The notes beneath the pieces were generated by a model. That model saw nothing but the letters and a program-made list of their open reading frames with translations. It made no database searches and was not told where the DNA came from. Below, one piece after another: positions 31,325 to 56,384 of a stretch of DNA of 64,000 nucleotides. Numbering within the stretch: the stretch's first letter is position 1; each line of letters begins with the position of its first letter. The position numbers and the translations under genes were made by a program. This stretch comes from Acidobacteriota bacterium (GTDB lineage: Bacteria; Acidobacteriota; UBA6911; RPQK01; JAJDTT01), in the NCBI GenBank assembly GCA_965217775.1, contig CBDCJH010000002.1:1536001-1600000 (forward strand), given 5' to 3'.

Positions 31325-31521
31325 CTCAATAGAACAGGTTATGGGCAACAACGGAATGAATTCAACAGATTCCGGCGGATTTTCCGGTTCCCGGAGATTT
31401 GTGGGAATGGTTGCTCAGCGGGGGCGGGCGAAGGTACCGGCATCTCAGTCAGGCACTATTTCGACATATAAAGCACTGAATAATCTGGGGGATTATATAC
31501 GAAAGTGCCCAAACCTGAGCA

Positions 31522-31704
31522 TTAACGCCGGTTCCGTGGCCGGTCTATCCATCTGATATTCACGGGCTGGACCAATGCACGGGCCAGCTCCTCGAAGTCT
31601 GCTTCCACGCGCATATCCTGTTCCAGTTCGGCCTTGGTCGGTTGGTAGGAATCCTTGACCAGTTCGATGGTGGGATGTTGGGGATTGTGTCTGGGTTTCT
31701 TCAT
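31522..31704 (-). CDS. Small hypothetical passenger protein (60 aa) of the IS1595 element
   Basis: ATGA-coupled to the upstream passenger; ends just inside the TIR; SYQPTKAELEQD motif. Confidence 0.6.
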   Translation of the reverse strand: MKKPRHNPQHPTIELVKDSYQPTKAELEQDMRVEADFEELARALVQPVNIRWIDRPRNRR

Positions 31705-32206
31705 GCGGCCCTCGGCATCCTAGGTTGTTTCCCCTCAAAGGAGTCTTCCGCCGTGTAGATTTGAATCTTGGGCAGGTCCATGAAGCGTCCGGCGTTGACG
31801 GCGGCATTTCTCATGCCGTTGGTCACTCGGTCTCGAAAGCAGGTGAAGATGCCGAGATCAGCTCCGGCCTGTCGACGTGCGCCGTTGAAGGCTTGGACGT
31901 GTCCAGGATTGGTAGAGCCGCCTTTGACCTGAGAAACGATGTCAATGAACCGGCCCTGGCGGATCGGGAGCCGTCCCACGCCGTCAATTCCGCCATCCCG
32001 TCTCTGGATTCGGTTCGGCTCCATACCCTCCACCAGAGCAGCAGCCCACCTCTCAAACCGGAATTTATCGATGCTGGCAAGCTCCTGAGCGTGTGTGATG
32101 GTATGGGGAAGGCCAATGTCTTGGGTGTGTTCCCAACGGATTCATCCGGGACATCCTCCCGCATGACTTCAAGGTGGTCTCCAAAGCTCAGTCGATTTTC
32201 GTTCAA
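31701..32206 (-). pseudogene. Internally deleted DNA methyltransferase / Mrr-like endonuclease fusion (passenger)
   Basis: N-terminus NRLSFGDHLEVMREDVPDESV (beta-class MTase start) joined out of frame near 32135 to …AQELASIDKFRFERWAAALVEG…DGGIDG…SQVKGG; MTase core absent. Confidence 0.7.
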
Positions 32207-33153
32207 CCCACCAAATCCTTGTAACGCAGCCGCTTTCCCACCATCCGGTCAGCGACCAGGGCCATTTGATCCAACGTGTCCATGCGCCTTAGGTTGTGAC
32301 GTGCGGCAAACTCTCCAACGTATCGGTCGGTGTGCTGTTCCGAGAAGTGGTGAAAGGTTCCGTGGTAACTCCGCTTCAACATCGACCAGAACGATTCGGC
32401 TCCGTTGGTGTGGCAGTTGCCTTTGACGTACTCCTGAAGAGAATGCTTGACCGTCTCGTGATTGACAAGCCGGCCGTAAGAGGTTGAATCGTCGGTGTAG
32501 ATCTTGGCATCTTCTCCCACGTGCTCCAAGACGAAACGGGAGAGGGTTTCAGACTTGGTGTCAGGGACGACTCGGGCCGACACTTGGTTGGAGGGGCGAT
32601 CTTTGACGGCAGCCACGGCCGTCTTTCCAACGGCTCCACGTCCCTCCAGTTTGGCGCGTTTGGCCTTTGGCATATTCTTCCGCTTTCCGCCGAGATACGC
32701 CTCGTCAGCCTCGACCGGGCCGGAGAACAGGGCCATTCCAGTCAGGTTCAGACCTTTCCGTATCCGGTGAGCAAGGTGCCAAGCCGTCTTCTGTGTTACG
32801 TCCAGGTCACGATGCAGCTTCATGGAGGAAACGCTCTTGAGGCTGGTAGTAAGGAGGTAGGTCGCAAGCAACCAAGTCTGATAGCCGAGTTTGGAGGACT
32901 GCATAACCGTCCCGACCCGGACGCTGAACCGCTTGCCGCAATCGCGGCAACGATACGGCATGGAAGGATGCTTGGCTCCGGTCTGGACGTTGGTGGAGCC
33001 GCAATGGACGCAACAGACTTCCTCCGGCCACCGCCGCTTTATGAACCATTCCTCAGCGGCTTTATCGTCGGGAAATCTCTTGAAGAATCCGCGCAGTGAA
33101 AGTCCCTCTCGGAACGCCTTGCCGGGTGCCTTGTTCCGTGTCTCGTAACTCAT
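32203..33153 (-). CDS. IS1595-family DDE transposase with N-terminal zinc ribbon
   Basis: CVHCGS…YRCRDC, QKTAWHLAHRIR, GPVEADEAYLGG, IYTDD, HTNGAESFWSMLKR; AGGAGG RBS before ATG 33153. Confidence 0.95.
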   Translation of the reverse strand: MSYETRNKAPGKAFREGLSLRGFFKRFPDDKAAEEWFIKRRWPEEVCCVHCGSTNVQTGAKHPSMPYRCRDCGKRFSVRVGTVMQSSKLGYQTWLLATYLLTTSLKSVSSMKLHRDLDVTQKTAWHLAHRIRKGLNLTGMALFSGPVEADEAYLGGKRKNMPKAKRAKLEGRGAVGKTAVAAVKDRPSNQVSARVVPDTKSETLSRFVLEHVGEDAKIYTDDSTSYGRLVNHETVKHSLQEYVKGNCHTNGAESFWSMLKRSYHGTFHHFSEQHTDRYVGEFAARHNLRRMDTLDQMALVADRMVGKRLRYKDLVG

Positions 33154-33178
33154 TGTATCCTCCTGACTTACAAGACAT

Positions 33179-33207
33179 ATTATATAGGAAAGTACCGGGA
33201 TTGTCAA
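33179..33207 (-). promoter_or_regulatory. Consensus sigma70 promoter of the IS1595 transposase
   Basis: Minus strand reads TTGACA-17 nt-TATAAT. Confidence 0.85.
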
Positions 33208-33277
33208 CCCCTACGGGCAACCTTTTCGGCACTTTCGTATATAATCCCCATAATCTGAATGACAACATTTTATTCAA

Positions 33278-52971: not shown

Positions 52972-53016
52972 TACTTCTTCGCCTTCATGAACGGAACGAC
53001 GGGCCCTGCCGGATTC

Positions 53017-53760
53017 TCAGTCGGACGCGGACCAGTCGGGTGCCGGACCCCAGCGCTCCGGCCAATCGACAGCGGCCAGATCGGCGGTGAGCGGATGCCA
53101 CAGATCGATCTTCTGCCTCATGACGCCCAGGTTGTTGGGCATGTCGAATTTGCTCGGAAGAGGCTCCACCCGGCCGGGAACCCCCTTGACGAAGCTCTTC
53201 CTGGGAACGTCACGGTGCACCACCGCTCCCGCCGCGATGAAGCTGCCCTCCCCGATGGTGATCCCGGGAAGAATGGTGCAACCGCCGCCGATGACCACTT
53301 CGTCTTCGATGGTGGCGCCGCAGGGCGTGGGCATGACGTCGTATCGGCAAGGCTCTCGATCGTTCAGGAAGATGACGCCCGGTCCCACGAAAACGTGGTC
53401 GCCGAACCAGGTCCGGGTGGGGATATAGGTGTGGGCCATGACCCGGACCCCGTTTCCCATGCGGACGATTCCTTCCACCACCGAGTGGTTGAAGATGGTG
53501 CAGTAGTTCCCGATCTCGACCTTGGCCCGGATGACCGCGTAGAGACCGGTCTGGAAGTAGTCGCCGATCCGGGTGTCGCCATAGATGACGGTCCCTTGCC
53601 GCAGGATCCCGTGGCGGCCGACCCGGGCCGGACCGCAGTCCCGGTGATAGCGAAAACCGACGGTGACTTCGGGCTCGATGAAGGTGCCCTCACCGATGAC
53701 GGCGTTCTCGAGCTGGGTCTCCCGGCCGGTGCGCTGATGGTGGGTCTGACCGTCGCTCAT
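53017..53760 (-). CDS. Hexapeptide-repeat (left-handed beta-helix) acyltransferase
   Basis: FVGPGVIFLND, IGGGCTILPGITIGEGSFIAAGAVV, GVPGR. Confidence 0.88.
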   Translation of the reverse strand: MSDGQTHHQRTGRETQLENAVIGEGTFIEPEVTVGFRYHRDCGPARVGRHGILRQGTVIYGDTRIGDYFQTGLYAVIRAKVEIGNYCTIFNHSVVEGIVRMGNGVRVMAHTYIPTRTWFGDHVFVGPGVIFLNDREPCRYDVMPTPCGATIEDEVVIGGGCTILPGITIGEGSFIAAGAVVHRDVPRKSFVKGVPGRVEPLPSKFDMPNNLGVMRQKIDLWHPLTADLAAVDWPERWGPAPDWSASD

Positions 53761-53793
53761 GCGGGTTCCTTCCTCCGAACGGACTTATGGAAT

Positions 53794-55037
53794 GGGGCTT
53801 ATATTCCTAAGTGCCCTTGGCATACAGTTCTGGCACCACGCTTTCCCCAACGAGATACGTTCCGGTACCCAGGGCAAGAACCCCAGCCCTGTGAATGTTC
53901 AGGGCGGCATTGTGGTCCCTGTCCATTCTAAGTCCGCAGGCCCTGCACCGGAAGGTTTCGCTCCGCCCTGGATCGTGGCGGGCGCCGCACCGGTGGCAGT
54001 CCTGCGATGTATATGCGGGATTCACTTCTACGAACTCCCGACCGGCCCATTCTGCCTTATACTGGAGTTGATTCCGCAGAAGCCCCCATGATTGCGTCAT
54101 TATTTCTCGATTCAGCCCCTTCTTCTTCGAGCCCTTCGTTACCATCCCTTGGATGTTCAGCTTCTCCACAGCGATCAGACCGTGCTCACGAATGATCCTG
54201 CTGGAGAGACGATGGCAGGCATTACGGTTTCGGACCGCTTCCCGGTGACGGAGCCGAGATAGCTGTACGATCCGCTTCCGTCTGGTCTTGGAAGTCTTCG
54301 TGCACCTGGAGACCTTTCTCTGCTGCTTTCGGATCCCCGCCCAGTCCCGTCGATTCCGTTCGATCCTCTCACCCGTGGACAGCACCGCTCGCTTGCGGAC
54401 TCCCAGGTCGATCCCTACCGAAGACTCGCATTTCGGTAGCGGCGGCTTCTCCACCTCGTAGGTCAGGTCCACATACACCCGGTTCGGCTTGCGGACGATC
54501 CGCATCACCTTCAACGGGCATCCGTCCGGCAACGGCCGGGACGGAAAGATCCGGATCGTCGGGAAGCCCTTGGGCCGGATGGCGTAGCCCCGAGCCCGCT
54601 TCTTCACCATCGTCGCCTTGGGGTCGACGACGTCGATGGTCTCCATCCTCGCCAGGGGCCGGAACCGAGGATACCCCGGCTTCTCCCCCGCCTTGCAGCG
54701 ACGGAAGAACGCCTTGAAGGCCCGGTCCAACCGCATCAACATCCCACGCTCCGCCTTGACCGCCACCGACCCGAGCCCCTCCGGATCGTCCTTCCTCTGG
54801 GAGGTCAACCCCTTCATCTGATCGTACAGGGTCACACCGTGTTCCTCGGATTCCCAGGCCGTCCTGCGTTCCTCCAGTGCAGCGTTGTACAGCCGATTCA
54901 GGATGGACCTCACCCGGTCCAACCGCCGGATTCCACCCTTGGACAGCTTGGCTCTGCACTGGATAGTTGCGTGGACTTTCATGGTAGGAATCGTAACCCA
55001 TCAGCCTGAATTCTCGGCACTTACATATATAATCCCC
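53794..55037 (-). mobile_element. Non-autonomous IS1595-ended cassette carrying only tnpB
   Basis: Inverted ends GGGGCTTATATTCCTAAGTGCC (53794-53815) and GGCACTTACATATATAATCCCC (55016-55037); flanks TATGGAAT (53786-53793) and TATAGAAT (55038-55045); ends match the IS1595 TIR at 18/22 and 20/22. Confidence 0.85.
53807..54982 (-). CDS. tnpB: RNA-guided endonuclease TnpB
   Basis: LYNAALEERR, GYPRFR, RuvC-I VGIDLG, RuvC-II IAVEKL, YTSQDCHRCG…CRACG zinc finger, RuvC-III DRDHNAALNI. Confidence 0.95.
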   Translation of the reverse strand: MKVHATIQCRAKLSKGGIRRLDRVRSILNRLYNAALEERRTAWESEEHGVTLYDQMKGLTSQRKDDPEGLGSVAVKAERGMLMRLDRAFKAFFRRCKAGEKPGYPRFRPLARMETIDVVDPKATMVKKRARGYAIRPKGFPTIRIFPSRPLPDGCPLKVMRIVRKPNRVYVDLTYEVEKPPLPKCESSVGIDLGVRKRAVLSTGERIERNRRDWAGIRKQQRKVSRCTKTSKTRRKRIVQLSRLRHREAVRNRNACHRLSSRIIREHGLIAVEKLNIQGMVTKGSKKKGLNREIMTQSWGLLRNQLQYKAEWAGREFVEVNPAYTSQDCHRCGARHDPGRSETFRCRACGLRMDRDHNAALNIHRAGVLALGTGTYLVGESVVPELYAKGT

Positions 55038-55145
55038 TATAGAATCCTGTCGGCTCCGGACATTCTGTCCTTCCCGGCGGAAGGACGCAACGAGGAGACT
55101 TGACCAGGGTTCTGGGGTAGCCGTTCCCAAGCATGCATCACAGGA

Positions 55146-56384
55146 TCAATGGCGTCTGCGCACCGGAAGAGCCGTCCGAGCCTCATGTTCGCGGATCATC
55201 TGCCCGTGAGTGACGATCTTTGCAAGGTAGCTTTCGGTGTCGAAGTCCAGAAAACGGTCCGGGGAGAACTCGGCAGCGTCGATGCTGGTATTTCCATCCA
55301 CCATGTATTCCGCCAGGAGGAACCCGGCGACGGGATGGTAGCCGAAGCCGCCGGAGTTGAAGGTGACGGCCAGATAGAGTCCCGGCAAGGCGTCCACCGG
55401 GCCGATATTGGGCAGAAAGTCCAGGGCGTAGCTCACCAGACCCACGCGATGGTAGTCGATCTCGACCCCTTCGATCAGGGGGAGCCGGTCCCGAACCGCC
55501 TCCTGGATGAAGGGCAGGGAACGGGGATCGGGGACGAGCTCGGTGAGCCGGAAGTCGGGTCCGGGCCGCTCGATCTGCACCGCCTCGTGGGCGCCGGTTC
55601 CCAGCAGGACGCGATCATCCTCCGTGGGACGGTAATAGACGCCCTTGGAATCGTCGTTGGTGGCCGGAAGCCGGGGCGGATGGCCCAAGGGCATGGTGAC
55701 CCATCGTTCGTGAACGAAATTGCGCACCGGCAGCGGCTGACCCGCCTCGGCCATCAGCGAATTGGCCCAGGCATTCACGGTGCAGACCACCGAGTCTGCC
55801 CGCAGTTCACCTGATTCCCGGGTCCCAACGCCCGTGACCCGTCCGCCTTCGATCAGGAACTCCTCGATGGTCACGCCTTCCCGGATTTCCACGCCCATCT
55901 CCCGGACCTTGGCGCTGAGCGCGGGAAGATAGCGGTCCGGTTCGCTGTAACCGCCGCGCAGGTCCAGCACGCCGTACTCGTCGTCACGAATCCGAAGATC
56001 GGGGAATCGCTCCTCTATCTGTTGCCGGCGGAGCACCAGAAACCGGGCTCCCGCACGCCGGTGCATCGGGTGGAGCCGGCGGGCCCGTTCGAACTGCTGG
56101 GAGTCCAGCAGATTCAGGCAACCCACCTGGTGAAAGTCGTAGTTCTCCAGGATCTTGTCGAACCGCTCGAAGATGTCGAAGGTGATTCCTCGCGCCCGGC
56201 TGGCCCCCTCGGTGGCCATCATCATGGTGTTGATGGCCCCGGACCGGCTGCTGGAACCGTCGCCCACACGGCCCTTGTCCAGGAGCAGGATCTTCCGAAC
56301 ACCCTTGTCGGCCAGATGGAACGAGGTGCTCAATCCGGCGATCCCGGCGCCGACGATGATCACCGACTGTGACGTGTTCGCCAT
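55146..56384 (-). CDS. FAD-dependent oxidoreductase (DAO / sarcosine oxidase beta-like)
   Basis: IIVGAGIAGLS, GSSSRSG, VNAW, PNIG, SGGFG, FSPDRF. Confidence 0.88.
   Translation of the reverse strand: MANTSQSVIIVGAGIAGLSTSFHLADKGVRKILLLDKGRVGDGSSSRSGAINTMMMATEGASRARGITFDIFERFDKILENYDFHQVGCLNLLDSQQFERARRLHPMHRRAGARFLVLRRQQIEERFPDLRIRDDEYGVLDLRGGYSEPDRYLPALSAKVREMGVEIREGVTIEEFLIEGGRVTGVGTRESGELRADSVVCTVNAWANSLMAEAGQPLPVRNFVHERWVTMPLGHPPRLPATNDDSKGVYYRPTEDDRVLLGTGAHEAVQIERPGPDFRLTELVPDPRSLPFIQEAVRDRLPLIEGVEIDYHRVGLVSYALDFLPNIGPVDALPGLYLAVTFNSGGFGYHPVAGFLLAEYMVDGNTSIDAAEFSPDRFLDFDTESYLAKIVTHGQMIREHEARTALPVRRRH

What the first reader, a model, noticed from the sequence alone, without database searches (positions are those of the whole stretch)
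53770..53910. Candidate omegaRNA fused to the TIR: guide may be the flank or the TIR itself
Seen (minus strand): after the RuvC-III codons the tail reads …GGTACCGGAACGTATCTCGTTGGGGAAAGCGTGGTGCCAGAACTGTATGCCAAGGGCACTTAGGAATATAAGCCCC|ATTCCATAAGTCCGTTCGG. GGTACC can pair with GGTGCC, and the 3' arm (GGCA) of the hairpin TGCC-AAG-GGCA is the innermost four bases of the TIR. This TIR is the more diverged one, which would fit triple use as coding sequence, RNA and transposase site. Established: TnpB omegaRNA overlaps the 3' end of tnpB and takes its guide from DNA just past the element end. Inference A: the guide is TSD plus flank (ATTCCATAAGTCCGTTCGGA), which would cut empty alleles (5' neighbour …GACAGG) but not the filled site (5' neighbour …GCCCC), giving homing/retention for a DDE element. 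Inference B: the scaffold ends at the hairpin and the TIR is a fixed guide aimed at IS1595 ends.
Basis: inference. Interest (0 to 1): 0.75.

Follow-up and report, generated by a model that had tools for sequence, protein, structure and literature searches.

The report
TnpB guide RNA built into IS1595 end
A small jumping element carries only the RNA-guided nuclease TnpB between borrowed IS1595-type inverted ends, and its guide-RNA scaffold uses the right inverted end as its last stem and pseudoknot, so the guide must come from the DNA just outside the element.

Summary
Window 55037..53794 (minus strand) is a 1244-bp element. It has 22-bp IS1595-type inverted ends, an 8-bp target duplication and tnpB as its only gene. 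The genome holds 12 near-identical copies. An autonomous IS1595 relative in the same window has almost the same ends.

The last 98 nt form a conserved RNA fold with many compensatory changes. A covariance model built from it also hits IS200/IS605-type TnpB loci (Deinococcus, Alicyclobacillus). Its topology matches the published ISDra2 omegaRNA. The inner TIR is the 3' arm of the last stem. The outermost six TIR bases pair with the loop of the first stem, and this pseudoknot covaries across lineages.

In ISDra2 that pseudoknot lies directly before the guide. The guide here should therefore start 0-2 nt past the TIR, which supports Inference A. Inference B (TIR as guide) is rejected.

The base before the duplication is G in 37 of 39 insertions, always on the tnpB-upstream side. 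In the autonomous IS it is G in 7 of 17. This makes G a candidate TAM.

No RNA ends or cleavage are shown. TnpB in DDE elements, and TIR/TSD use by Fanzor guide RNAs, are already published, and this scan noted IS1595-type TnpB elements before on other genomes.

The parts
53794..55037 (-). Whole non-autonomous element (1244 bp): left TIR, tnpB, omegaRNA scaffold, right TIR
   Evidence: Similarity among 12 genomic copies stops exactly at these two positions.
55016..55037 (-). Left terminal inverted repeat (22 bp)
   Evidence: Inverted repeat I3. It differs at 1 of 22 positions from the TIR of the autonomous IS1595 at 31488-33249.
53794..53815 (-). Right terminal inverted repeat (22 bp). It also forms the 3' arm of the last omegaRNA stem and the 3' strand of the pseudoknot, and it holds the tnpB stop codon.
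55038..55045 (-). Left copy of the 8-bp target-site duplication (ATTCTATA, one mismatch to the right copy)
   Evidence: The uninterrupted site in related genome G008 reads GACAGG-ATTCCATG-AGTCC.
53786..53793 (-). Right copy of the 8-bp target-site duplication (ATTCCATA). Its first base A is the likely counterpart of omegaRNA position -2.
55046..55047 (-). GG immediately 5' of the left duplication: candidate TAM base(s)
   Evidence: Position -1 is G in 22 of 23 insertions in the genus and 15 of 16 in distant relatives. In the autonomous IS1595 it is G in 7 of 17.
53807..54982 (-). tnpB, 391 aa, intact
   Evidence: Pfam OrfB_IS605 and Cas12f1-like TNB. Best solved relative is ISDra2 TnpB. Acidic RuvC residues D192, E273 and D356 align with acidic residues in ISDra2 TnpB.
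53794..53891 (-). omegaRNA scaffold core (98 nt). H1 is 53891-53886 with 53875-53870. H2 is 53869-53864 with 53837-53832. H2b plus H3 is 53860-53852 with 53847-53838. H4 is 53826-53819 with 53807-53800. The pseudoknot is 53884-53879 with 53799-53794.
   Evidence: RNAalifold, pair counts and covariance model R1. The window copy scores 108 bits.
53774..53793 (-). Candidate guide (about 16-20 nt of duplication plus flank). The true first base is 53793, 53792 or 53791; the length is not known.
   Evidence: Inferred from the pseudoknot position relative to the guide in ISDra2 and from where IS605-type relatives end. Copies share no sequence here.
31488..33249 (-). Autonomous IS1595-family element (1762 bp, transposase 33207..32203): likely source of the transposase that moves the TnpB element
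   Evidence: PF12762 and PF12760. Perfect TIRs almost identical to those of the TnpB element, and an 8-bp duplication.

Best explanation
This is a non-autonomous IS1595-type transposon whose only gene is tnpB. A DDE transposase encoded by autonomous IS1595 copies elsewhere in the genome probably moves it. The 3' end of tnpB and the right TIR together encode a true TnpB omegaRNA scaffold of about 98 nt. Stem 1 carries the pseudoknot partner in its loop, a long composite stem follows, and the last stem takes its 3' arm from the inner TIR. The outermost six TIR bases (AGCCCC) form the pseudoknot with the stem-1 loop (GGGGUU). In the solved ISDra2 complex this pseudoknot sits directly before the guide. 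The guide here must therefore be transcribed from the DNA just past the TIR, that is, the right copy of the 8-bp duplication plus flank.

By homology, the transposon boundary falls between scaffold positions -3 (C) and -2 (A). The first duplicated base A, and perhaps the next A/T, would then complete the scaffold, and the guide would start at duplicated base 1 to 3. The resulting TnpB-RNA complex would recognise the uninterrupted target site, where the guide match is preceded by ...G (or ...G-A-W). It would not recognise the filled site, where the match is preceded by the TIR's ...C. That would give retention or homing of the element, as shown for IS605 TnpB.

Shown here: the anatomy, the fold, the pseudoknot covariation, the homology to IS605-type tails, the target-site bias and an empty allele. 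Inferred: the exact guide start, the TAM, cleavage and the biological benefit.
For: Element and mobility:
- 12 copies at 93-100% identity end exactly at the TIR tips. Of these, 10 have a perfect 8-bp duplication, 1 has one mismatch and 1 has none.
- Autonomous IS1595 copies have TIRs matching at 21 of 22 positions.
- A related genome holds the empty allele.

Fold:
- RNAalifold finds 10 pairs with compensatory change.
- With a manual structure on 21 tails, 96.4% of cells pair against 84.3% in shuffles (0 of 500 reach it). 15 of 34 pairs change on both sides. Slid controls give 33-48%.
- Model R1 finds 44 matches in 75 distant loci. On that alignment 92.2% of cells pair against 67.6%, and 28 of 34 pairs change on both sides.

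Pseudoknot:
- It was not part of the model, yet it is 86.7% paired, with GC/AU and UG/AU/CG exchanges.
- Loop and tail variants match each other: GGGGUU/AGCCCC, GGGAAU/AUUCCC, GGGACUU/AAGUCCC, GGCGAUU/AAUCGCC. Cognate duplexes average -7.31 kcal/mol against -5.89 for swapped ones (permutation 0 of 10000).

Last stem:
- It is present at the right end only.
- Cognate arm/TIR duplexes average -8.73 against -6.85 (0 of 10000).

Homology:
- R1 hits Deinococcus and Alicyclobacillus TnpB tails (45 to 22 bits).
- In the Deinococcus loci the last stem is the right-end hairpin also seen at the left end in L153, L156, L144 and L152. Copies diverge 2 nt (A plus N) after the aligned C.
- ISDra2 architecture from the paper: stems 1-4, pseudoknot -6..-2 pairing with -102..-106, guide from +1 (PMC10097598, passages read).

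Target bias:
- Position -1 is G in 37 of 39 insertions, against 7 of 17 (transposase orientation) and 3 of 17 (other orientation) for the autonomous IS. Fisher p = 2.7e-5 and 2.5e-9.
- The first flank base is A in 31 of 32 tails in the genus.

Nuclease:
- Intact D-E-D and zinc finger.
- dN/dS is 0.11-0.30 in 7 valid subfamily pairs.
Against: - No RNA 5' or 3' end, guide length, RNP or cleavage was observed.
- The only RNA data are assembled contigs from four metatranscriptome runs of a single study. The higher depth on the element (18-47 against 0-8 on neighbours) could simply reflect its 12 or more copies if DNA is carried over.
- A one- to three-base TAM is short for a bacterial TnpB.
- In distant relatives the first duplicated base is A in only 8 of 16 (C in 6, T in 2). 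The idea that A completes the scaffold is therefore not universal.
- The control IS may not be the only transposase source, so part of the G|A bias could be transposase preference.
- ISDra2's TAM-reading residues are not conserved here (K76 aligns to V75, Q80 to R79), so no TAM can be transferred by homology.
- A cut-and-paste DDE excision already leaves a break. The benefit of a homing nuclease is therefore unclear, a point also made in review PMC13565253 (passages).
- The window copy itself carries a stem-weakening change in the TIR and a mismatch in its duplication.
Confidence: 0.66

Rival explanations
1. Inference B: the scaffold ends before the TIR, and the TIR sequence itself is a fixed guide that aims TnpB at IS1595 ends (its own or those of autonomous copies).
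For: The TIR is transcribed as part of the tnpB 3' end. It is about 20 nt long and occurs at many genomic sites.
Against: - The inner TIR is the covarying 3' arm of the last stem, and the outer six bases are the covarying pseudoknot strand. A guide should be unpaired.
- These TIR bases occupy the model positions that, in IS605-type relatives, match the right-end hairpin and tail of the scaffold.
- The 18 nt after the proposed hairpin differ from the IS1595 TIR at 3 positions, two of them near the 5' (seed) end, and from the element's own left TIR at 2 positions.
Confidence: 0.03
2. Inert cargo: tnpB and its RNA tail were captured between IS1595 ends and are simply carried along. The fold is inherited from an IS605-type ancestor and is not used.
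For: The transposase is supplied in trans and does not need TnpB. No expression or activity is shown. Review PMC13565253 argues that DDE elements gain little from OMEGA systems.
Against: - Compensatory changes accumulated within the TIR-bounded lineages.
- The stem-1 loop tracks lineage-specific TIR tips. This requires selection on the RNA after capture.
- tnpB is under purifying selection (dN/dS 0.11-0.30), with catalytic residues kept.
- The design persists across Acidobacteriota, Chloroflexota and other MAGs at 38-54% protein identity.
Confidence: 0.1
3. The omegaRNA and flank guide are real, but the G|A junction motif is only the target preference of the mobilising transposase, not a TAM or scaffold requirement.
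For: IS1595-family elements here choose AT-rich 8-bp targets flanked by G or C. 5 of 17 autonomous insertions also show G|A. Different TnpB subfamilies may use different, unsampled transposases.
Against: - The motif is tied to the tnpB orientation even in subfamilies whose two TIR tips are identical.
- The window subfamily shows G|A on the upstream side in 14 of 14 sites (13 insertions with a matching or one-mismatch duplication, plus the left flank of copy L008, whose duplication does not match). The autonomous IS with almost the same TIR shows it in 5 of 17.
- G at -1 persists in 15 of 16 distant relatives.
- A symmetric transposase preference would also predict C after the duplication, which is seen in only 10 of 22.
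Confidence: 0.25
4. The RNP is functional but serves something other than homing, for example repressing or cutting sequences near each insertion. In the window the candidate guide lies 14-33 nt upstream of the start codon of the hexapeptide-transferase gene.
For: The candidate guide 53793-53774 lies just upstream of the ATG at 53760. Domesticated TnpB relatives that act as repressors are known (listing only).
Against: The RuvC residues are intact. Copies sit in unrelated contexts with unrelated flanks. The element is multi-copy and mobile, unlike domesticated forms.
Confidence: 0.05

Closest known systems
ISDra2 TnpB-omegaRNA (IS200/IS605 family; Nakagawa et al. 2023, PMC10097598, passages read)
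   Same: - ISDra2 TnpB is the best solved relative of the protein, apart from an AI-designed nuclease chain (9yyg) that scores higher (E 4.5e-32).
- Same RNA order: stem 1 with the pseudoknot partner in its loop, a stem enclosing another stem, a last stem, a 5-6 nt pseudoknot strand, then the guide.
- The RNA overlaps the 3' end of tnpB and the right end of the element.
   Different: - Here the element has TIRs and an 8-bp duplication and no Y1 TnpA.
- The last stem and pseudoknot strand are made from a DDE-type TIR, not from the single-strand hairpin recognised by TnpA.
- The scaffold core is about 98 nt, not 116.
- The transposon boundary appears to fall two bases earlier in the scaffold.
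- ISDra2's TAM-reading residues are not conserved.
DDE-transposase-associated TnpB branches and solo TnpBs mobilised in trans (Altae-Tran et al. 2023, PMC10691335, passages read)
   Same: TnpB flanked by inverted terminal repeats. Solo TnpB sits within ends nearly identical to those of transposase-bearing elements. The TnpB 3' end is close to the element end, and a related way of obtaining guides is suggested.
   Different: - The main text names only IS630, and 'IS1595' occurs 0 times. Review PMC13565253 lists ISL2, IS630 and IS1031.
- No omegaRNA structure, pseudoknot or TAM is given for these branches in what I read.
- Supplements are closed, so I cannot tell whether this clade is one of DDE-1 to DDE-5.
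Fanzor and Fanzor2* guide RNAs in TIR/TSD cut-and-paste transposons, and the IS607 'right-flank nucleotide' rule (Saito et al. 2023, PMC10432273; Yoon et al. 2023, PMC10711439, section 28 with figure legends read)
   Same: - The guide RNA runs through the right TIR.
- Flank or duplicated bases are incorporated into the scaffold, and the 5' duplication is read as part of the TAM.
- Short TAMs ending in G exist (CCG, TAG, GGG).
   Different: - Those are eukaryotic or viral elements, or IS607.
- Their duplications are short and fixed (TA, TTAA), so all of the duplication can be scaffold and TAM.
- Fanzor1 has lost the pseudoknot.
- Here the duplication is 8 bp and mostly variable, so most of it must be guide, and the pseudoknot is kept and built from the TIR tip.
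IS1595 family insertion sequences (autonomous copy at window 31488-33249)
   Same: TIR sequence, 8-bp duplication and AT-rich targets.
   Different: The TnpB element has no DDE transposase. It shows a strict orientation-linked G|A junction that the autonomous IS lacks.

Membership tests
TnpB (OrfB_IS605-type RNA-guided nuclease) | OrfB_IS605 RuvC core plus TNB/zinc-ribbon domain | tested here: met
   PF01385 E 1.1e-17 and PF07282 E 3e-26, both above the curated cut-offs. ISDra2 TnpB chains E 4.5e-32.
TnpB (OrfB_IS605-type RNA-guided nuclease) | RuvC D-E-D catalytic triad and CxxC...CxxC zinc finger retained | tested here: met
   D192 and E273 are invariant, and D354/D356 are at least 90% conserved, in 23 relatives. 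They align with acidic residues of ISDra2 TnpB. CHRC and CRAC are present. That these are the catalytic positions is recalled knowledge, not a test.
TnpB omegaRNA (reRNA) | Structured RNA overlapping the 3' end of tnpB and reaching the right end of the element | tested here: met
   Covariation-supported fold at 53891-53794. No Rfam family matched.
TnpB omegaRNA (reRNA) | Pseudoknot directly 5' of the guide, pairing the 3' tail with the stem-1 loop region | tested here: met
   Loop 53884-53879 pairs with tail 53799-53794. It is 94.4% paired in 21 tails and 86.7% in 40 distinct distant matches, with compensatory exchanges. The ISDra2 description comes from PMC10097598.
TnpB omegaRNA (reRNA) | Sequence/structure homology to omegaRNAs of IS200/IS605 TnpBs | tested here: met
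   Model R1 hits Deinococcus and Alicyclobacillus TnpB tails over all 111 positions, at 45.2 to 21.9 bits.
TnpB omegaRNA (reRNA) | Guide of about 16-20 nt transcribed from the flank; RNA actually made and bound | tested here: inconclusive
   RNA-library contigs run through the right TIR into the flanks of other copies and stop near the tnpB start on the left. They are assembled contigs from one study, and DNA carry-over is not excluded.
TnpB omegaRNA (reRNA) | TAM-dependent cleavage of a guide-matched target | not testable with these tools
   There is only an indirect signal: G at -1 in 37 of 39 insertions.
IS1595-family transposable element | Family-type terminal inverted repeats and 8-bp target-site duplication | tested here: met
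   22-bp TIRs, with the left TIR matching the autonomous IS at 21 of 22 positions. The 8-bp duplication is perfect in 10 of 12 copies.
IS1595-family transposable element | Encodes its own DDE_Tnp_IS1595 transposase | tested here: not met
   The only long ORF with a family match is tnpB. The transposase is found elsewhere in the genome, in 9 places. The element is therefore a non-autonomous derivative, not an IS proper.
IS200/IS605 (including the tnpB-only IS1341 group) | No TIRs, no duplication, subterminal hairpins at both ends, insertion 3' of a fixed 4-5 nt site | tested here: not met
   TIRs and a variable 8-bp duplication are present. The hairpin is at the right end only. The family definition is as stated in PMC13565253.
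DDE-associated TnpB branches (Altae-Tran 2023) | Phylogenetic placement in one of the branches DDE-1 to DDE-6 | not tested
Only the shared architecture was checked.

The most novel reading that the evidence does not exclude
The target site completes the guide RNA. The transposon ends between scaffold positions -3 and -2, so each new insertion must supply the missing A (and next base) from its own duplication, and a G on the other side as TAM. Only insertions that land on G|A-W in the right orientation yield a working TnpB-RNA pair. Those copies are then retained or copied, which would produce the near-absolute, orientation-linked junction motif that the autonomous IS1595 lacks. If so, TnpB activity measurably shapes the genomic distribution of a DDE cut-and-paste element. 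This bears directly on the open question of what OMEGA nucleases do for DDE transposons.
Probability: 0.3. Interest if true: 0.75.

Novelty: new variant of a known kind. Interest (0 to 1): 0.6.

Why it matters
TnpB's role is understood for IS605 and IS607, whose excision is scarless. For DDE cut-and-paste elements the benefit is debated, and the guide-RNA anatomy in bacteria has only been suggested. This family offers four things:
- a clear structural solution, in which the transposase-binding TIR doubles as the last stem and pseudoknot strand, and the stem-1 loop co-evolves with the TIR tip;
- a natural control in the same genomes, namely the autonomous IS with almost the same ends but no TnpB;
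- an orientation-linked junction motif that can be tested as a TAM;
- a compact scaffold (about 98 nt) and a 391-aa nuclease, possibly with a short G-containing TAM, which may interest genome-editing work.

It is not a new principle. Fanzor and IS607 already show flank or duplicated bases inside the scaffold.

Tried and rejected
- Rfam (evalue mode) on 53000-55500 gave no match.
- The sigma-70 and terminator scan found no minus-strand promoter and no terminator after the right TIR. The consensus may not suit this phylum.
- RNA evidence: 4 metatranscriptome runs of one study, held as assembled contigs, cover the element. They cannot give ends, strand or level. Parts without cover are not interpreted.
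- Searching for protein-less omegaRNA copies in the genome: all 16 R1 matches lie at the 16 tnpB copies or fragments already known.
- MAFFT alone could not align the inner part of the last stem or the distant tails in register. I used per-lineage folds, swap tests and the covariance model instead.
- Transferring the TAM from ISDra2 through TAM-contacting residues: the residues are not conserved and the alignment is uncertain by one residue.
- dN/dS: of 14 pairs computed, 7 were dropped because the script picked a non-tnpB ORF in L028, L036, L040 or L031.
- One control row (L069) was mis-resolved by the script because two IS copies lie in tandem. I read it instead, and it does not change the counts.
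- The notebook of this scan had nothing for this place.
- Literature: searches for TnpB plus IS1595 (9 papers, none on this), TnpB plus DDE transposase plus terminal inverted repeat plus guide (4 papers), and TnpB plus target site duplication plus inverted repeats (26 papers) found no description of an IS1595-borne TnpB omegaRNA. Supplements of Altae-Tran 2023 could not be seen and may hold it.
Full report
**Observation.** It is the 3' end of a 391-aa ORF (54982..53807) that matches OrfB_IS605 and the Cas12f1-like TNB domain. Its best solved natural relative is ISDra2 TnpB (E 4.5e-32; an AI-designed nuclease chain scores higher). A 22-bp inverted repeat joins 53794-53815 to 55016-55037. The stop codon lies inside the right repeat.

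**The element.**
- A DNA search of the window's own genome found 18 matching places. They make up 12 copies at 93-100% identity, one of them split by an insertion, plus four diverged or partial relatives.
- Aligned with their flanks, the copies lose similarity exactly at the outer G/C runs of the repeats. This gives a 1244-bp unit (window 55037..53794).
- Of the 12 copies, 10 have a perfect 8-bp direct repeat of flanking DNA. The window copy has one mismatch (ATTCTATA / ATTCCATA), and one copy has unrelated flanks.
- In related genome G008 the orthologous intergenic site is uninterrupted and reads GACAGG-ATTCCATG-AGTCC.
- tnpB is the only gene inside the element.
- The genome holds 9 matches to the IS1595 DDE domain. 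They include 1762-bp elements, one of them at window 31488-33249. Their perfect TIRs match the TnpB element's left TIR at 21 of 22 positions and its right TIR at 19 of 22, and they also make 8-bp duplications.
- The element is therefore a non-autonomous IS1595-type transposon, most simply moved in trans.

**Distribution.**
- Among 61 related genomes, close homologues (E <= 1e-20) occur in 6. All are in the window's genus (5 of 8 other members), and none is in the 52 genomes outside it.
- Several subfamilies (72-86% protein identity) all have the same end architecture.
- A scan of species-representative genomes found relatives at 38-54% identity in MAGs labelled Bryobacterales, Terriglobia, Caldilineaceae, Dehalococcoidia and others. 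Many have the same TIR type and 8-bp duplications.

**The RNA.**
- Twenty-one diverged tails align well.
- RNAalifold predicts adjacent helices, with 10 pairs showing compensatory change.
- I wrote out four nested helices: H1, H2, H2b+H3 and H4. With these alone, 96.8% of cells pair, against 82.9% after shuffling (0 of 500 shuffles reach it). Slid controls give 33-46%.
It is 99.2% paired, and 4 of its 6 pairs change on both sides.
- The last helix, H4, starts right after a conserved GAAC. Its 3' arm is the middle and inner part of the right TIR.
- H4 differs in sequence between subfamilies but recurs in most of them. It has no counterpart at the left end in 7 of 8 lineages checked.
- Cognate 5'-arm/TIR duplexes are more stable than swapped ones: -8.73 against -6.85 kcal/mol, with 0 of 10000 permutations as low.

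**Homology to known omegaRNAs.**
- A covariance model of the 111 consensus positions (R1) found 44 matches in 75 distant loci.
- The matches include TnpB loci of Deinococcus and Alicyclobacillus that lack this TIR type (45.2 to 21.9 bits, full model length).
- In the Deinococcus loci, H4 corresponds to a right-end hairpin. Its near-copy also sits at the left end in all four loci where a left end was read (L153, L156, L144, L152). This is the IS200/IS605 hallmark.
- The published ISDra2 omegaRNA has stem 1, stem 2 enclosing stem 3, and stem 4. It also has a pseudoknot in which -6..-2 pair with -102..-106 (between the arms of stem 1), followed by the guide from +1 (PMC10097598, passages).
- The same pseudoknot is present here. 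The H1 loop (GGGGUU, 53884-53879) is complementary to the last six bases of the element (AGCCCC, 53799-53794).
- Adding it to the structure keeps 96.4% pairing.
- On the model-derived alignment of 40 distinct distant matches, the pseudoknot is 86.7% paired, although it was not part of the model. It shows GC/AU (19/12) and UG/AU/CG (13/10/7) exchanges.
- Loop and tail change together between lineages: GGGAAU/AUUCCC, GGGACUU/AAGUCCC, GGCGAUU/AAUCGCC, and GGCU/AGUC in Deinococcus. Cognate duplexes average -7.31 against -5.89 kcal/mol, with 0 of 10000 permutations as low.
- The TIR tip, which the transposase must recognise, is thus also the pseudoknot strand, and the RNA's stem-1 loop has tracked it.

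**Where the guide is.**
- The pseudoknot strand directly precedes the guide in ISDra2, and the right TIR supplies both H4 and that strand. The guide must therefore come from just beyond 53794. This supports Inference A and rejects Inference B.
- Copies of the IS605-type relatives diverge two bases after the C that the model aligns with the last TIR base...C-A-A in two D. antarcticus copies, and ...C-A-C in two other Deinococcus loci. The paper gives -3C and -2A for ISDra2.
- By this homology the IS1595-type boundary falls between -3 and -2. The first flank base would be -2.
- That base is A in 31 of 32 distinct tails in the genus. In distant relatives with a recognisable duplication it is A in only 8 of 16. 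This refinement is an inference.
- It has precedents. The right-flank nucleotide of IS607 and the duplications of Fanzor transposons are part of the scaffold, and the 5' duplication is part of the TAM (PMC10711439, section 28; PMC13565253, passages).

**Candidate TAM.**
- In tnpB orientation, position -1 is G in 22 of 23 insertions in the genus. These are 18 of the 19 with a perfect duplication found, plus the window copy, two further copies, and the left flank of the copy without a matching duplication.
- Position -1 is also G in 15 of 16 insertions of distant relatives. In one search, 36 loci were examined, 28 had a TIR pair, 18 had a duplication with at most 2 mismatches, and 2 of those were genus copies already counted.
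- Position -2 is mostly G in the genus and A/T in distant lineages.
- As a control I used the autonomous 1762-bp IS, with 17 insertions in three genomes. It has G at -1 in 7 of 17 in transposase orientation and 3 of 17 in the other orientation. It has G|A in 5 and 3 of 17.
- Fisher tests give p = 2.7e-5 (37/39 against 7/17) and 2.5e-9 (against 10/34). Related insertions are not fully independent, so these p-values overstate.
- The bias holds in subfamilies whose two TIR tips are identical. This argues against TIR asymmetry as its cause.
- In the filled site, the same guide match is preceded by the TIR's C. A TAM containing that G would therefore spare the element.
- Short TAMs ending in G are known for relatives: CCG and TAG for Fanzor2 and GGG for ISXfa1.
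- Whether the motif arises at insertion or through TnpB-dependent retention cannot be told from sequence.

**Is the nuclease alive and expressed?**
- The acidic RuvC residues and the zinc finger are kept.
- dN/dS between subfamilies is 0.11-0.30 in the 7 valid pairs of 14 computed.
- Four metatranscriptome runs of one study, labelled sponge metagenome, hold near-identical sequence. Their contigs stop at 54967-54996 on the left, near the start codon and short of the left TIR. On the right they run through the TIR into the flanks of other copies.
- That pattern fits a transcript from inside the left end through the guide region. However, contigs cannot show ends, and the depth ratio is what 12 DNA copies would also give.

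**Comparison and novelty.**
- TnpB flanked by inverted repeats with DDE transposases, and solo TnpBs moved in trans, were reported in 2023 (PMC10691335, passages). That paper's main text names only IS630.
- A 2026 review lists ISL2, IS630 and IS1031.
- Two earlier notes of this scan describe IS1595-type TnpB elements in other genomes.
- Use of the TIR and the duplication by the guide RNA is established for Fanzors.
- What I did not find in print (searches; supplements closed) is the bacterial IS1595 case with three features: its retained pseudoknot built from the TIR tip, the boundary shift into the scaffold, and the orientation-linked junction motif set against an autonomous-IS control.
- I therefore class it as a new variant of a known kind.

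Noticed in passing
window 31493-32206 (minus strand), inside the IS1595 copy 31488-33249: The autonomous IS1595 carries about 700 bp of extra sequence downstream of its transposase, with small ORFs. The 110-aa ORF 32033..31701 matches restriction-endonuclease-like domains (NA-iREase1 E 2.2e-07, Mrr_cat E 2.2e-04). It is a passenger gene of unknown role.
   Followed up: partly
L092:1004-1119 (minus strand), Bryobacterales MAG locus: A relative at 54% identity has a second, outward-facing match to the omegaRNA model (48.4 bits) at its LEFT end, giving an inverted repeat of about 80 bp and a 1425-bp element. It might produce guides from both flanks.
   Followed up: no
G000:C2:1186779-1188026 (locus L008/L039): One otherwise intact copy has non-matching 8-bp flanks (AATGGATT / AAACATAT). 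This suggests recombination between two copies, that is, a rearrangement breakpoint.
   Followed up: no
G000:C2:4647306-4648714 (L012/L015) and 2358589-2359866 (L011): Two copies are damaged. One is split by an insertion of about 160 bp near the 3' end of tnpB. The other is 21 bp longer than the 1244-bp unit and has an in-frame TGA.
   Followed up: no
G002:C1:4122494-4126026 (L066/L069): Two 1762-bp IS1595 copies sit head-to-tail only about 9 bp apart, one having inserted right next to the end of the other.
   Followed up: no
L106, L108 (Caldilineaceae MAGs) and L029, L053 (window genus): Independent insertions in different genomes or sites share the same 8-bp duplication (AAATGTAA twice, ATAAAATA twice) with different outer flanks. 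This hints at a narrower target preference than 'AT-rich'.
   Followed up: no
loci L092-L135 (record titles): Relatives of this TnpB clade with IS1595-type ends occur in MAGs of several phyla (Acidobacteriota, Chloroflexota, a Binatia-labelled MAG and a Gammaproteobacteria-labelled MAG). This points to horizontal spread of the composite element.
   Followed up: no
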